A DNA stretch of 64,000 bases from Octopus vulgaris. Lineage: Eukaryota. Both the position numbers and the translations under genes were made by a program. Below are positions 38,167 through 62,673 of this stretch, piece by piece. The first letter of the stretch is position 1. Each line of letters begins with the position of its first letter. The notes below the pieces were generated by a model. The model saw only the letters and a program-made list of their open reading frames with translations, did no database searches and was not told where the DNA came from. The stretch spans positions 19,592,001-19,656,000 of the forward strand of contig OX597836.1 in assembly GCA_951406725.2 (NCBI GenBank). Reading direction: 5' to 3'.

Positions 38167-38550
38167 AACTGTTGAGGCAAGTGAAATCAAAATCGATCAA
38201 AATCTATGGAAATTGCAGTTGTGATACCAGTGCCGGTGGCACATAAAAAGATCCACCCAAACGTGGCCGTTGCCAGCCCCGCCTCGACTGGCCTCCGTGC
38301 TGGTGGCACATAAAAAGCACCAACCGATCATGGCCATTGCCAGCCTCGCCTGGCACCTGTGCCAGTGGCACGTAAAAAGCACCCACTACACTCATGGAGT
38401 GGTTGGCGTTAGGAAGGGCATCAAGCTGTAGAAACACTGCCAGATCAAGACTGGAGCCTGGTGCAGCCTCCTGGCTTCTCAGACCCCATTTGAACCGTCC
38501 AACCCATGCTAGCATGGAAAGCAGACGTTAAACGATGATGATGATGATGA
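38167..38550 (+). mobile_element. RTE 3'-tail copy
   Basis: Highly similar to 16220-16499; ends in (GAT)n. Confidence 0.88.
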
Positions 38551-38799: not shown

Positions 38800-41700
38800 A
38801 TAATGAAACTTAATATAAAGCAGTTTATTGATGAAAAATATGCATTCAAGAAGTTACAATGTCACATGGTAATTAAATGGATAATGAAACTAAAAGGTAA
38901 AAAAATAATAATAAACAAAAAAAAAAACCCAAATAGAGCACTGGGAGAGAAAGAGAGAGAGAGAGAGAATGTGATAAAAACAAAAGATATATTGCAAGAA
39001 TGAGCGAAATGATGTGATCAGTTTAAGGAAAATCTGTATGACGAAAAAAGATGTCATGTTTTTAATGTTTTAAGCAAGCAAAGAGAAATTAGCTTTAATA
39101 TTAGTTGATTATTATTATTATTATTATTATTATCTTCTATAGGCACAAAACCTGGAATTCTGGGGGGACGGGGTTAGTTGGGGACATCAGACCCCACTGT
39201 TCCAACTGCTACTTGAGCACTTGGGTTGATGTAACAACATAACCCCTCATCCTCAAATAGTTTTAAAACATTATTTACAATTGACGGATATTTGTCCTCA
39301 TCTTGTTTGTTGTTATCATGTTATCAAGTGTCTTGGGGTAATTTTGAACCTGGGTTCTCATCCGTAAGGTATTTTTCGATATTATCATTATTCAGGTCAT
39401 TACCTGGAATTGAACTTGGAATCTTGGGGTTAGTAGCTAGCGTTCTTAACCACTACGCCATATGGCATAGTGGTTAAGAGTGTGGGCTACTAACCCCAAG
39501 ATTCCGAGTTTAATTCCACAGGTAGTGACCTGAATAACAACAACATCAAAAAATACCTTAGGAATGAGAACCCAGGTTCAAAATTTCCCCAAGACACCTG
39601 ATGAAGGCTGGAGGGTAAATCAGTCGAAACATTAACAACAAACAAGATGAGGAGAAATATCCATCAATTGTAAATAATGTACATAATTCCTCATCTCTTA
39701 AATATAGAACTGTATAGTTTAAAGATTTAATAAAATTGAAAAATACCTAAGATTAAAAATTCATCTCAAAAGCAAAAAAGTATTTTCATATATTAAAAGA
39801 AATATTTAAATTTTATAATAAAATCTATTTCTAATTTAGGCACAAGGCCATTAATTTTGAAGTGAAGGAAGTTGGTCAGTTGCACTATCCTCCAGTACTT
39901 TTAATCAACCTGAAAGGATGAAGGTAAGGTACAGGTGACCTGACCACGACAAGATTTGAACTCAGGACATAAGCAATCGAAAGAAAGGCCACAAAGCATT
40001 TTGCCCAACTCTCAACAATCCTGACAATTCATCACTCTTAAATTTTGGCACAAGTACTTGAATGCTAGTGTGGTTTATCGACCTTGAAAGGACGAAAAGC
40101 AGAGTTGACCCCAGTGGCATTTGAAGTCAATCTAGAACTGGAAGAAATGTTACTAATCATTTTATCCAATGCACTAACAATTCTGCCATATTTATAATAA
40201 TAATAATAATAATTATTATTTCTACTATAGGCACTAGGCTTGAAATTGTTGGGGAAAGGACAGACGATTACATTGGTCCCCAGCAGCCAACTGGTACTTA
40301 TTTTGTTGACCCCAAAATGATGAAAGGCAAAGTTAACCTTGGTGGTATTGGGGGTTCAGAAAGCAGAGCTGAAAGATATGATGCTAAGCATTTTTCTCTG
40401 ATGTGCTCATGATTCTGCCAGTTTGCCGCCTTATATATCAATAATAATAATAATAATAATAATAGTGACCAAGGCAAACAAAAATGGAAATTAATTAAAA
40501 ATGAAAAAAAAAAGAGCTGTAGAGATTCTATGCAGAGAGAAATGTTACCAAAAAACTATTATATGAAAGTGCACAGGTTAGTTATATAATAAAGAAAATA
40601 TCAAAGAAGATATATATGCACAATGGGAGGAGGGAAAGAGGGAAAGAATATTATGTGTTAAGAGCAGTTATTTTTTTATATTTCAATAGAGTGAAGATTG
40701 TTAGTGGATAAAATTCAAAAAAAGTGCCAACTATTGCAACTAGGAAAAAAAATAAAACCAAAAAATATTTTTTTAAACTTTGCTTCAATTTCTGATGGAA
40801 TAAATGAAAAAATAAATATATACATACATAGGTATGTATATAGATGTATGTCTTTATATATGTGCATATATGTGTGTGTATAGATTTATGTATATATATA
40901 TATGAAAACTTAGTAACTGTGGCTTATTTTAGCCAGCCTTTCATTATATATATATATACACACAAATACATGTCTATATGCGTGCATGGATGTATGTGCA
41001 TATATATATACATATATATATATATATACATACATATATATATATATACATATATATATACATATATACATACATATATATATATTTAAAATATATATGT
41101 ATATATATATAATATGTATGTTCATTTGTGAACCTAATAACTACTTTTGATTATATACATGTCTATACATACACATGTATACACACATATATATATACAC
41201 ACATACGTTATTTATATATATGCATATATCACAGTCCTATTGAGGAAGGAACAGCAATAAGATGTATAGCTATGGTGTTTCTCAGATCAAGTGACCGGGA
41301 GCTAAAAAAAAAAATGATGATAAAAATAATGGCAGAGAGCCAGTTCATTAAACAGCTGGGACTAATCTAATCAAATCTAATCTATCTAGAAAGCAGCAAT
41401 AGTAGTAATAGTAGTAGCAGTAATTAACTAAGTCTTTAGCACCACAGTAAACTACCCTCCCTCCCAAAAAACCAACCAACCAATCAATGACTTGTCAAAC
41501 CATCTCTTGAATACTTGTTACCAATCCCAGCGGAAAAGTCAGTAGTGTTTAGCCGAAGAATAATCTGAAGCAGGTGTATGGTCTAATTTGATGTATAACA
41601 GGTTTGTTTAATTGACTGAATATTCTTAGAATAGTGACAGTGAGCAGAAGAAATAGGGAATCCATTTCATGGGGTAACAGAAAACTCTAAATGGTGTTCT

Positions 41701-42808
41701 TAATATACGGCAAACTTTTTTTTCCAATTTATTTAAACGATATGGTGCCTCTGACATGATTTATAACAATAGCTTTCAAGTGGAGCTGTTTACTTCAAAA
41801 CTTAAAATAAAATTGAAAATGCAGCAGTAACTTTTATATTGACAAAAAAAAAAAAAAAATAATAATAATAATATTCAATTAATCTTCAAATGGATTTCAC
41901 CAGTATATTAATTAACAGCCATAATTGTATTTAAGAAAAAATGTATATATTTTAAATAGACATGATTTAGAAGATATCAAAATTGTATGACGATAATGGC
42001 TTGAATGACAAAGTGAGAATTTTAAAAATGGTTTCAGTAGAAAGATGTATATTTTAATTACTTGTACCCCTAATAGATGGTTCCACATCTATTTGCTTTT
42101 TTTAATGACTTACAAATTAAAATAAAGGAATATATACAACATGCATGTACATATGTATACATGCACACACACACATACATACACATCTGTGTATACATAT
42201 TATATACACATTTATGCATATATGTTTGTATATGTATGTATATATGCTTACACATATATGACCCTATTTTAAATACCCTGCTTTAAGGGAGTAAAAATAA
42301 ACTGAAATACTCCAGAATGTACTTCACATTGTTAAACCTAACATGCAAGTTATTTTTTTTCATACACTAATTAAAAAGAGGAGGGAGGGGGGGTCAGTAA
42401 GGCAGCCAAGTGAAAGAGAAAAACATTTAACAAGATATGTCATCAAATGGTATTAGAGATAATTATTTAATCAAGGATCAAATCTCAAAATACTTCCTAG
42501 TTTTGTTCTTTTCATTAAAAAAAAAAAACCCAAAGTTTTACTTTCTTTTTTTGTTTTTTTTTTCTTCTTTAATACCAAATTCTTTAACAGAACAGACTTC
42601 TCCCACCCACCCCTCATTAACAATGTTACACACAGAAATATCTGTGCGGTTGTGTTTATCAACGATTCCTCAGAGTCTGTTTCACACACCTCACTCTTGT
42701 GCCACTATCAGCAATAACTGTCGATGATCTAATAGGTAGGTAGATGCTGCCAAAATATCAGGTCTACTCGTTTCCCTGGCCCACTAATGGCACCACAGCC
42801 ATTCCAGC
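38800..42808 (-). other. Probable lamin 3' UTR (end uncertain)
   Basis: AT-rich sequence downstream of the predicted stop; minus-strand AATAAA candidates at 41728-41733 and 38824-38829. Confidence 0.4.
39270..39712. mobile_element. Head-to-head inverted pair of a tRNA-headed, hammerhead-bearing short element (another copy at 46165-46400)
   Basis: Palindrome centre gccatatggc at 39457-39466; ACAC-CTGATGA-A-GGCTG..CAGTC-GAAAC at 39594-39630. Confidence 0.75.
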
Positions 42809-42813
42809 TTACC
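42809..42813 (-). CDS. Lamin last exon, coding part (GG TAA completes Trp and stop); 3' UTR follows leftwards
   Basis: Long polypyrimidine acceptor ttttttcttcatttctttctAG|GG TAA; phase complements the 28-nt microexon. Confidence 0.75.
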
Positions 42814-44032
42814 CTAGAAAGAAATGAAGAAAAAAATTAAAAATAGCCAAGTACAAAAATATTCCACATGCATTTTACAAAACAAGTTAAGTTCGTTTAA
42901 TCAGTTAGAAAATAAACCCCCTCACACTTACAGTAAAAAAACTACTAACCATTTAGAAGACAGGGTACAAATAAAGCTGCACAATAAACTAGACTGGCAC
43001 TTTGTTGGTTATGACAAAGAGTTGCTCTGATCAGTGGAACAGCCTGCTCGTGAAATTAAAGTGCAAGTGGCCAAGCACTTCATGTACATGTGTACCATTC
43101 ATGTAGTTCTCAGAGAGACATGGTGGGATACAGATTGTGACAAGGCTGGCCCTTTAAATTACAGCTGAGAGGACTGGAGCAATGTGAAATAAAGGACACG
43201 ACATGCTGCTGGGAACCAAACTCACAAGAGAGAGATAGGGAGAGAGAGAGAGAGAGAGAGAGAGAAGGCCAATCCTTTTTGCAATTGAGCGTCTGCTCTT
43301 ATAGGACTGGTGCCTGCGTGTCTCAATAGAATTGGATTTTAAGGAATTTTTAATCAAAGTGAAAAAAGGCTAATGCAAGAACTTGTACATTCTGTTCAAC
43401 CTGCTAGAAATATCTACGGAAACTCTCTCAAATCATATTCTACTGTCTTAGAAAAGGCCACATTGGATAAGGTGATTCTGTGACAGGAAAAAGAGGAATT
43501 CCACAGCTCAAGACTGCCTACGTATAAACAACATATACACATACACACAATAACCATTTATATATTTTGTATTGTACGACAGTTGTAAATCATCGGTTAG
43601 ACCAGTTCAATCATTAATTCACACTATTTGTAATGATGACGGTGACAATGGACCATCTGTGCAACTTGGGTGGAACAACTATCATTCATGGTATTTTGCA
43701 TTCAAAAGCATTTCTTTTCATGTCTATGCTTATATTTTTTGCCATTGCACATCAAAGAGAGAGATAGACTCATCACCACCACCACCATGCATTTAATGAG
43801 CTACATTTTTTGTCTACCAAATTCCATTTGTATGAAATCAGTGAACTGAAAGCTATGGCAAAAGACTAATGGTGCAGCATACTGGGTTTAACCAGGGGCC
43901 ACATGGTGGTAGCAAAGTAAAATGCTTCAAATCATTTGAAGCCTTACACTGCAGCAACCATTTCTTCACTATATAAACAGAACAAAGACAAGAAAATTAT
44001 AGGTATATATAGATAGATATATATATACTTAC

Positions 44033-44060
44033 AGAATATCCAGCCTTTCTTTTGGGGAGT
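44033..44060 (-). CDS. Lamin 28-nt microexon encoding TPQKKGWIF plus the first base of the final Trp
   Basis: ttttgttttgttttctcacttgtAG|ACT CCC CAA AAG AAA GGC TGG ATA TTC T|GTAAGT; phase 0 in, phase 1 out. Confidence 0.8.
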
Positions 44061-45023
44061 CTACAAGTGAGAAAACAAAACAAAATCAATTTCATTCATG
44101 TAAAAAAAAGAAAAAAAAAAAAAAAAAAAGAAAAGAATTTAATAAAAATCTCAAAAAAAAAAAAAAAAAAAAAAAAAAAGAGAGAGAGAGATAAACACAA
44201 ATCCATATGTTGCTATTAATGGTAAAATGGTAAATGAATAATGTTTAATGAGATCAACAGGATGATGCTGAATTATAAAATATGAGTTAGCCAAAATAAT
44301 GAGAAAAGACAAAGATGGTTTAAATCAAGAGATGAAAAAATGATTGTTAGGCTACCCCAACAAATGATTGCTTCATGTGTTTGTGTATTGTGTACCCGAG
44401 AATGGTATTACATTTATTCCTTCATTATGATAATTTCAACAGTACATATATTGGTTTCAAATTTTGTCACAAGGCCAGAAAATTTGGAAGAGAAGCTAAG
44501 TCGATTAAATCAACCCCAGTGGTCAACTGGTACTTATTTTATCAAACACCGAAAAGATGAAAGGCAAAGTCAACCTCGGCAGAATTTAAACTTAGAATGT
44601 GAAGACAGATGAAATACCGCTAAGCATTTTGGCTGGCGTATTAATCATTCTGCCAGCTCACTACCTTAAAGGATCATGTAATATTATCACATACATGTGT
44701 TCCATGTTCATCTTGTCAAGCAAAGTCAAGACTTTTCCTGCATGTAATCACATGTAATACACTGTAATAGTAGACAATCATTTATATTCATGATGTATCC
44801 AAACCCTGTATTGTTGAAACAATTGTAATGAAGGGAATAAATGTGATACCATCACCACCAGTTTTGAATATGCTATATCAGACTCTACAACCAACAAATT
44901 CTCCCTGGAATTTCAATGTGTAAGGAATGATTTCATTTATGTCCATTTCTATGCACATTAAAGCCAGCATTTCTGAGAGCACAACCTGAGGAAACTACTT
45001 GGATTTCTAAATCCTCTTTAACT

Positions 45024-55380: not shown

Positions 55381-55407
55381 AAGATGGCGGCGAGAGTATT
55401 GGTAAAC
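55381..55407 (-). CDS. Probable lamin cassette microexon (VYQYSRRHL), or start of an alternative terminal exon
   Basis: Strong acceptor cctttttctttccAG; 27 nt frame-preserving; GTACGT donor. Read-through stays open to the stop at 55096. Confidence 0.5.
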
Positions 55408-58461: not shown

Positions 58462-58548
58462 AGAGCTATCAGACTCATCTCTGGGTGCTGTCCTGAAACT
58501 CGAAGAAGTGTGTAACATAGATTTTGACATCTCACAACTGGCCATTTC
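58462..58548 (-). CDS. Lamin exon: end of Ig-fold and distal tail
   Basis: EMASCEMSKSMLHTSSSFRTAPRDESDSS; polypyrimidine-AG acceptor and GTAAGT donor; 87 nt, phase 0/0. Confidence 0.88.
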
Positions 58549-59492: not shown

Positions 59493-59609
59493 CTCACCAG
59501 AGTTGCTCAACAAAGTTGTTCTCATGCTGTCTGACACAAACCACCTTTGGGATTTCATAACCAAATCTGATGGAGGGTTATGTGTCTGGCCACTATCTGC
59601 ACTCCAAAC
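59493..59609 (-). CDS. Lamin tail domain exon
   Basis: [39 protein letters not shown] (cf. IWAAGAGATHSPPTDLVWK...RTALINSTGE); AG/GTAAGT boundaries; 117 nt, phase 0/0. Confidence 0.93.
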
Positions 59610-62456: not shown

Positions 62457-62673
62457 CTTCTCACCAGAGTTGATTAATTTGATAAACTTCCCATCAGAAT
62501 CTACTGTGTCAATACTTAAGGCTGATTTACACTGGTTTTTTGAGGCATAACCTTCATTCTTTGAAGAGACCTCTTCGCTGCTGGTTTCTGTAGTCACTTT
62601 GCGTTTCTTGCCTCGAAGTTGAGTCGAACTTCGAGCCTTGGGAGAAGCGCATTCGGAGGCAGAGAGGTTCAAT
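62457..62673 (-). CDS. Nuclear lamin exon: end of rod, NLS (KKRK), start of Ig-fold tail domain
   Basis: (R)LNLSASECASPKARSSTQLRGKKRKVTTET...LSIDTVDSDGKFIKLINSGEK. catAG acceptor (phase 2) and GTCAGT donor (phase 0), the same boundaries as vertebrate lamin exon 7. Confidence 0.9.

What the first reader, a model, noticed from the sequence alone, without database searches (positions are those of the whole stretch)
42809..44060. CaaX-less lamin ending in a basic-aromatic motif (KKGWIFW*) built from a 28-nt microexon and a 2-nt coding last exon
Seen: after the phase-0 exon ending ...RDESDSS (58462), a 28-nt exon 14 kb away has strong splice sites and encodes TPQKKGWIF+T. The next strong acceptor supplies GG-TAA, so the terminal Trp codon is split by a 1.2-kb intron. 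I found no exon encoding a CaaX box. Established: lamins normally need CaaX farnesylation to bind the inner nuclear membrane, and CaaX-less lamins with aromatic C-termini have been reported in some lophotrochozoans, so the class is known. Inference: KK plus W-I-F-W acts as a prenylation-independent interfacial membrane anchor. The ORF track cannot show these exons.
Basis: partly seen in the sequence, partly recalled or inferred. Interest (0 to 1): 0.8.

Follow-up and report, generated by a model that had tools for sequence, protein, structure and literature searches.

The report
Known octopus lamin without lipid anchor
This is the end of the common-octopus lamin gene, whose protein lacks the usual fat-attachment signal and ends instead in a short aromatic tail that likely grips the nuclear membrane; the tail, its split last codon and that untested idea were all published in 2022.

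Summary
On the minus strand, 44060-44033 (28 nt) and 42813-42809 (GG TAA) complete a lamin ending TPQKKGWIFW*, with the last Trp codon split by a 1219-nt phase-1 intron. The exons give 185 of 185 residues identical to Octopus vulgaris and O. sinensis lamin-B1 isoform X2. No credible CaaX exon lies in the window. PMC10125929 lists this exact tail for O. vulgaris/sinensis (590/599 aa). It also reports the split codon, the optional exon and CaaX loss in all 23 cephalopods studied, and proposes the aromatic membrane-anchor role as untested. I did not test junction reads. Best mechanism, inferred (about 0.6): W-I-F-W inserts into the inner nuclear membrane in place of farnesyl, and filament assembly multiplies the weak binding. 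Novelty: already known. The anchor function remains an open, testable question.

The parts
62457..62673 (-). Lamin exon, 217 nt: end of rod, NLS-like basic cluster (RGKKRK at 62615-62598), start of lamin tail domain. Upstream exons (head and rod) lie beyond the window end.
   Evidence: homolog hit to Octopus lamin-B1; Pfam LTD at residues 454-557 of P0002
60884..60988 (-). Lamin exon, 105 nt, lamin tail domain
59493..59609 (-). Lamin exon, 117 nt, lamin tail domain
58462..58548 (-). Lamin exon, 87 nt, ends RDESDSS in phase 0 (matches the paper's exon 10, the last before the cephalopod-specific exons)
55381..55407 (-).
   Evidence: present in P0004 and P0001, absent from P0002, P0003, P0005
44033..44060 (-). 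28-nt microexon encoding TPQKKGWIF plus the first base of the terminal Trp codon
42814..44032 (-). 1219-nt phase-1 GT-AG intron that splits the terminal Trp codon
42809..42813 (-). Coding part of the last exon: GG (end of Trp codon) plus TAA stop
41728..42808 (-). Probable 3' UTR up to the first AATAAA (41733). The true transcript end was not determined. No C-x-x-M-stop remnant in any of three frames over the 2.8 kb below 42813.
   Evidence: extent inferred

Best explanation
This is the 3' end of the Octopus vulgaris/sinensis lamin gene, whose annotated 590- and 599-residue forms both end in TPQKKGWIFW instead of a CaaX box, and that aromatic tail likely stands in for the farnesyl group by inserting into the inner nuclear membrane. 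Shown: exon structure, identity to the annotated proteins, no CaaX box, no Gly at position 2, and a conserved W-x-F-W end with net charge +2. Inferred: the basic cluster RGKKRK brings the protein into the nucleus. The flexible tail beyond the lamin tail domain would place W, I, F and W at the lipid-water interface, with a smaller contribution from the two lysines. One tail would bind weakly, but dimers and filaments would present many tails at once and so hold the lamina on the membrane. The optional 27-nt exon adds two Tyr and two Arg just upstream and may tune that binding.
For: Exons give 185/185 (short) and 194/194 (long) identity to P0002/P0003 and P0004. Pfam Filament and LTD families pass their cut-offs. 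Of 21 sequences in the Octopus, Argonauta, Sepia and closely similar unnamed clusters, 18 end W-x-F-W, 0 have Cys at -4 and 0 have Gly2. The other 3 are two N-terminal fragments and one model that reads into an intron. By contrast, 27 of the next 30 hits (non-cephalopod where named) end C-x-x-M. The motif sits exactly where CaaX sits in those relatives. PMC10125929 found only CaaX-less lamins in 23 of 23 cephalopods and aromatic ends in several separate lineages, and cites a prominent lamina in a leech that has only such lamins. Precedents for unlipidated C-terminal aromatic anchors: the Nup53 C-terminal membrane site depends largely on its last Trp, and deleting 8 residues abolishes it (PMC3474928 passages); PIKK FATC domains bind membrane mimetics (PMC4703999 passages). 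[quoted passage not shown]
Against: No binding or localisation experiment on any such lamin tail appeared in searches, and PMC10125929 says proof is lacking. In carrot NMCP1, whose conserved aromatic C-terminus the paper offers as an analogue, deleting the last 111 residues did not affect rim localisation; those constructs carried C-terminal EGFP and the host cells presumably had their own NMCP proteins (PMC3935212 passages). In full-length Nup53, loss of the last Trp only slightly reduced binding. Invariant Trp positions fit a protein-binding motif just as well. The tail is only about 10 residues and ends in a free carboxylate, unlike a methylated farnesyl-cysteine (established knowledge). 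Bdelloid rotifer lamins lack both CaaX and aromatics, so aromatics are not the only solution.
Confidence: 0.6

Rival explanations
1. The W-x-F-W end is a short protein-binding motif that docks on an inner-nuclear-membrane or pore protein (for example an LBR, SUN or LEM-domain protein). It anchors the lamin indirectly rather than entering the lipid.
For: Fixed W-x-F-W spacing in 18 of 18 complete tails and in all 23 species in the paper's Table 3 is stricter than simple lipid insertion needs. The Nup53 C-terminus also binds a protein (NDC1), and FATC domains have been proposed to bind proteins.
Against: Unrelated aromatic tails with different spacing arose in annelids and rotifers. That fits a physical property better than one binding pocket. 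No partner is known.
Confidence: 0.22
2. The tail is not needed for membrane targeting. The lamin is held at the rim through rod or Ig-fold contacts with membrane proteins and chromatin, and the aromatic end serves filament assembly, stability or membrane shaping.
For: The conserved C-terminus of NMCP1 is dispensable for rim localisation. The last Trp of Nup53 matters more for membrane deformation than for binding. Bdelloid lamins have neither CaaX nor aromatics.
Against: CaaX-less lamins tested so far cannot reach the membrane alone (PMC10125929 introduction). The motif replaces CaaX at the same position.
Confidence: 0.14
3. A CaaX-bearing lamin does exist in this animal, as an unseen splice form or a second gene, and it carries the aromatic-tailed form to the membrane, as in terebellid annelids.
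For: Such dual forms exist in five annelid clades. One acceptor with 16/20 pyrimidines at 43477 would give a short phase-0 end in CGLF. I could not search the rest of the genome.
Against: C-x-x-M ends arise from only 1 of 3352 AGs in phase 0, 1 of 2650 in phase 1 and 2 of 2585 in phase 2, all with poor acceptors (7-11/20 pyrimidines). No C-x-x-M-stop remnant lies in the 3' UTR. 0 of 21 cephalopod-cluster sequences end in CaaX. The paper found none in 23 species.
Confidence: 0.04

Closest known systems
Cephalopod CaaX-less lamins (PMC10125929, Protoplasma 260:741; O. vulgaris/sinensis row of Table 3 and Table S1)
   Same: Identical C-terminus TPQKKGWIFW*, 590/599-aa isoforms, optional exon 11, terminal Trp codon split over two exons, and the same proposed membrane role.
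   Different: Nothing found. The window cannot be assigned to O. vulgaris rather than O. sinensis from these 185 residues, which are identical in both.
Canonical CaaX (B-type) lamins of other molluscs, brachiopods and ecdysozoans
   Same: Filament rod (in P0002, outside the window), NLS-like basic cluster and lamin tail domain.
   Different: They end C-x-x-M (27 of 30 hits P0012-P0041), mostly after an acidic stretch (net charge 0 or below in 26 of 27). This one ends W-I-F-W with net charge +2.
Annelid alternative-tail lamins (Terebelliformia, Capitella, Urechis, Clitellata)
   Same: Aromatic, non-acidic C-terminus added by a new exon. Two unnamed hits have similar SWGWSLF-type ends (P0034, P0036).
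   Different: Terebellids, Capitella and Urechis keep a CaaX splice form, and in terebellids and Arenicola the CaaX sequence stays in the 3' UTR. No such remnant was found here.
Nup53 C-terminal membrane site and PIKK FATC domains (working analogues only)
   Same: Unlipidated extreme C-terminus whose aromatic residues are implicated in bilayer binding.
   Different: Unrelated proteins. Their binding has been measured; the lamin tail's has not.

Membership tests
Lamin (type V intermediate filament) | Coiled-coil rod (Pfam Filament PF00038) | tested here: met
   P0002 residues 50-405, E 2e-67. The rod exons lie outside the window; the link is 185/185 identity of the window's tail to P0002.
Lamin (type V intermediate filament) | Lamin tail domain (PF00932) | tested here: met
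   P0002 residues 454-557, 62 bits against a cut-off of 34.3; encoded by window exons 62673-58462.
Lamin (type V intermediate filament) | Basic monopartite NLS between rod and tail domain | tested here: met
   RGKKRK at 62615-62598. Motif match only; import was not tested.
Canonical CaaX lamin | C-terminal C-a-a-X tetrapeptide | tested here: not met
   Ends W-I-F-W. No credible CaaX exon in three phases and no remnant in the 3' UTR; 0 of 21.
Lamin C2-type myristoylated lamin | Gly at position 2 | tested here: not met
   P0002 and P0003 begin MSTK; 0 of 21 have Gly2.
Cephalopod CaaX-less lamin | C-terminal consensus sQqkkgWlFW* | tested here: met
   TPQKKGWIFW*, identical to the paper's O. vulgaris/sinensis entry.
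Cephalopod CaaX-less lamin | Last exon carries only the 2nd and 3rd base of the Trp codon plus stop | tested here: met
   42813-42809 GG TAA after a phase-1 intron; described.
Cephalopod CaaX-less lamin | One optional exon before the two terminal exons in octopods | tested here: met
   55407-55381, VYQYSRRHL.
Cephalopod CaaX-less lamin | Junctions present in transcripts | tested here: inconclusive
   No reads were laid. Indirect support: X1/X2 protein records, and full-length 591-604 aa relatives ending W-L-F-W on Logan contigs of 2.2-3.5 kb, which must be spliced given the size of the gene here (inference).
Cephalopod CaaX-less lamin | Only lamin gene of the genome | not testable with these tools
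   No whole genome is held for this window. The paper reports no CaaX lamin in cephalopods.
Unlipidated aromatic membrane anchor (works-like claim) | Tail binds bilayers and is needed for rim localisation | not testable with these tools
   Needs liposome and cell assays.

The most novel reading that the evidence does not exclude
Octopus lamin swapped a permanent lipid anchor for a switchable one. The T-P-Q-K at the start of the 28-nt exon matches the full cyclin-dependent kinase consensus (S/T-P-x-K/R, recalled), right beside the aromatic end, so mitotic phosphorylation could release the lamina from the membrane directly. The optional Tyr/Arg-rich 27-nt exon could set anchor strength by tissue. 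For: S/T-P in the last 14 residues of 17 of 21 sequences (17 of the 18 with complete tails). Against: the full consensus is in only 5 of 21, all Octopus; Argonauta lacks it, and so does the Nautilus tail in the paper. The main text of PMC10125929 does not raise this idea.
Probability: 0.12. Interest if true: 0.55.

Novelty: already known. Interest (0 to 1): 0.12.

Why it matters
As a discovery it adds nothing: gene, motif, split codon and hypothesis were published in 2022. The open question is real, though. If about ten unmodified residues can hold a lamina on the inner nuclear membrane, then farnesylation is replaceable in animals. The octopus tail would then be a genetically encoded anchor for separating lamin assembly from lipid modification, which bears on prelamin A and farnesyltransferase-inhibitor biology. 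This window gives exact coordinates for both isoforms but no new evidence on function.

Tried and rejected
Whole-genome search: no genome is held, so a second lamin gene could not be excluded directly. Sequencing-run search on 41500-44200: 23 runs listed, 20 holding part of the stretch, no RNA holder listed; not used as evidence. Laying contigs gave no result, so junctions in this organism remain unexamined here. Hidden CaaX exon: rejected as chance-level. Phase 0 gave 10 CaaX-like ends from 3352 AGs, 1 of them C-x-x-M. Phase 1 gave 17 from 2650, 1 C-x-x-M. Phase 2 gave 18 from 2585, 2 C-x-x-M. The only CaaX-like hit with a good acceptor inside the gene is 43477 (CGLF), found in none of the proteins. 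Re-splicing at the donor-like G|GTAAGC at the start of the last exon to make a Cys codon: no plausible downstream C-x-x-M exon. Intron retention after 58462 or 44033 gives no CaaX. Last exon as a decayed CaaX exon: in phase 0 it reads GKLEWLWCH*, with no C-x-x-M remnant; I could not compare other cephalopod genomes. Myristoylation: no Gly2. Candidate 45-nt exon at 48129-48085: in none of the Octopus protein records, treated as chance. Earlier scan notes: none found. PMC10658181: 2 passages read, not relevant. No structure or complex prediction was run; a 10-residue tail binding lipid is outside what those tools test.

Full report
Observation. On the minus strand, 44060-44033 is a 28-nt segment between a pyrimidine-rich TAG acceptor and a GTAAGT donor, and 42813 begins GG TAA after a TAG acceptor. 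With exons 62673-62457, 60988-60884, 59609-59493 and 58548-58462, one open frame of 185 codons ends TPQKKGWIFW*. All introns are GT-AG. The last is 1219 nt and phase 1, so it splits the Trp codon; the others are phase 0. A strict scan of 58461-42813 for a strong acceptor plus consensus donor gave 2 candidates, one being the 28-nt exon, and 42813 ranked first of 21 acceptors in 44032-41000.

Identity. A search with exon 62672-62457 returned 1 protein among 44 candidates, Octopus bimaculoides lamin-B1 X1. Its cluster has 6 members, including O. vulgaris and O. sinensis records. The window's 185 residues match P0002 (O. vulgaris X2) and P0003 (O. sinensis X2) at 185 of 185 positions, so the window comes from the common-octopus complex; these residues cannot tell the two species apart. 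P0002 carries Pfam Filament (50-405) and LTD (454-557). The longer X1 records have nine extra residues, VYQYSRRHL, found 9 of 9 at 55407-55381 with CAG and GTACGT boundaries. Including them gives 194 of 194 identity to P0004. Its acceptor is weaker (13/20 pyrimidines, with an upstream AG) than the other six (15-19/20).

Is there a CaaX form? I translated from every minus-strand AG downstream of the donors in three phases. C-x-x-M ends came from 1 of 3352, 1 of 2650 and 2 of 2585 sites, all with 7-11/20 pyrimidines. The only CaaX-like hit with a good acceptor inside the gene is 43477 (ends CGLF), which no protein record shows. No C-x-x-M-stop remnant lies in the 2.8 kb below 42813. A homolog search with P0002 residues 400-590 found 345 proteins and listed 120. 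Of those 120, 86 have Cys at -4, 6 end W-x-F/W-W and 28 end otherwise, mostly fish lamin A models, plus one snail model and two unnamed annelid-like tails. The 6 are the six best hits. Adding cluster members gave 21 sequences: 18 end W-x-F-W and none ends in CaaX or has Gly2. The other three are two N-terminal fragments and P0006, a model that reads into the intron after the optional exon (33 of 34 residues match the window's intron). Two of those clusters (P0009; P0011 and 4 members) are unnamed. I grouped them with cephalopods by similarity and motif, which is partly circular. Eleven unnamed full-length proteins (591-604 aa) lie on Logan contigs of 2.2-3.5 kb. Since the last 185 codons span 20 kb here, these are likely spliced transcripts, which is indirect support for the junctions in relatives. 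Junction reads for this organism were not examined, and the rest of the genome could not be searched.

What is known. PMC10125929 (read: parts 1-6 of 8, which hold the whole main text and tables; two rows of the supplementary table by search; figures not seen) reports only CaaX-less lamins in all 23 cephalopods examined, with consensus TPsQqkkgWlFW*. It states that the last exon holds only the second and third base of the terminal Trp codon plus the stop, and it describes an optional exon 11 in O. vulgaris. Table 3 lists TPQKKGWIFW* for O. vulgaris/sinensis, and Table S1 gives 590/599 aa, exactly the two isoforms here. The discussion proposes that Trp and Phe mediate membrane association and says this needs experimental proof. 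Searches for a later test showed none in the listings (12 of 14 papers listed; 2 of 2; 12 of 12; 12 of 146). The library lacks most subscription journals, so this is weak evidence of absence.

Mechanism. Shown: the protein has rod, basic NLS-like cluster and tail domain, has no CaaX or myristoylation signal, and ends in a conserved W-x-F-W with net charge +2. The ten residues before the Cys in CaaX relatives are neutral or acidic in 26 of 27. Inferred: the aromatic side chains partition into the membrane interface in place of farnesyl, and polymerisation supplies avidity. Analogies in favour: the Nup53 C-terminal site depends largely on its last Trp and needs dimerisation (PMC3474928, 7 passages); FATC domains bind membrane mimetics (PMC4703999, 12 passages); peripheral inner-membrane binding depends mainly on packing defects, with minor electrostatics (PMC13530154, abstract), which would make the aromatics more important than the lysines. 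Against: the look-alike C-terminus of carrot NMCP1 is dispensable for rim localisation (PMC3935212, 8 passages); loss of the last Trp only slightly lowers full-length Nup53 binding; bdelloid lamins manage without aromatics. I give the direct lipid anchor 0.6, a protein-docking motif 0.22, a non-targeting role 0.14 and a hidden CaaX lamin 0.04. Confidence in the gene model and identity alone is about 0.97.

Most novel reading. T-P-Q-K matches the full CDK consensus (recalled, not from a call) beside the aromatic end, which suggests a phospho-switchable anchor. S/T-P is present in 17 of 21 sequences, but the full consensus is in only the 5 Octopus ones, and Argonauta and Nautilus lack it. Probability about 0.12.

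Verdict. Real, correctly read, and already known in every structural detail. The function is still untested. Interest 0.12.

Noticed in passing
YSRRHL is also present in Sepia and unnamed decapod-like long isoforms.
   Followed up: yes
window 55380-55280 (-): The intron just after the optional exon is strongly conserved: read in frame, it matches the tail of P0006 (same cluster as O. bimaculoides X1, apparently an older model) at 33 of 34 residues, against 87% for the coding tail. Likely splicing-control sequence; in the window this frame stays open for 100 codons from 55407.
   Followed up: partly
window 42813-42784 (-): If the 28-nt exon were skipped, the last exon would be read in phase 0 as GKLEWLWCH*, again a Lys plus Trp-rich end without CaaX. 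It may be chance; no protein record shows it.
   Followed up: partly
window 42813-42807 (-): The last exon starts G-GTAAGC, so the stop codon overlaps a donor-like sequence. No plausible downstream C-x-x-M exon was found for it.
   Followed up: partly
window 44060-44049 (-): T-P-Q-K matches the full CDK consensus (recalled) next to the aromatic end; full match in 5 of 21 sequences, all Octopus.
   Followed up: partly
window 43477 (-): Acceptor with 16/20 pyrimidines inside the last intron that would give a 9-residue phase-0 end in CGLF; unsupported by any protein record.
   Followed up: partly
window 38226-38383 and about 63480-63230: A tandem repeat of about 67-nt period and similar-looking head-to-tail units on the opposite strand in the lamin intron near 63.3 kb; probably a dispersed octopus repeat family.
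   Followed up: no
window about 37300-36200 (-): By eye, a decayed coding-like stretch that may be a LINE retrotransposon remnant; not translated or searched.
   Followed up: no
proteins P0034, P0036: Two unnamed Logan lamins end in SWGWSLF-type aromatic tails that resemble the Urechis/Capitella alternative ends in the paper's Table 4.
   Followed up: no
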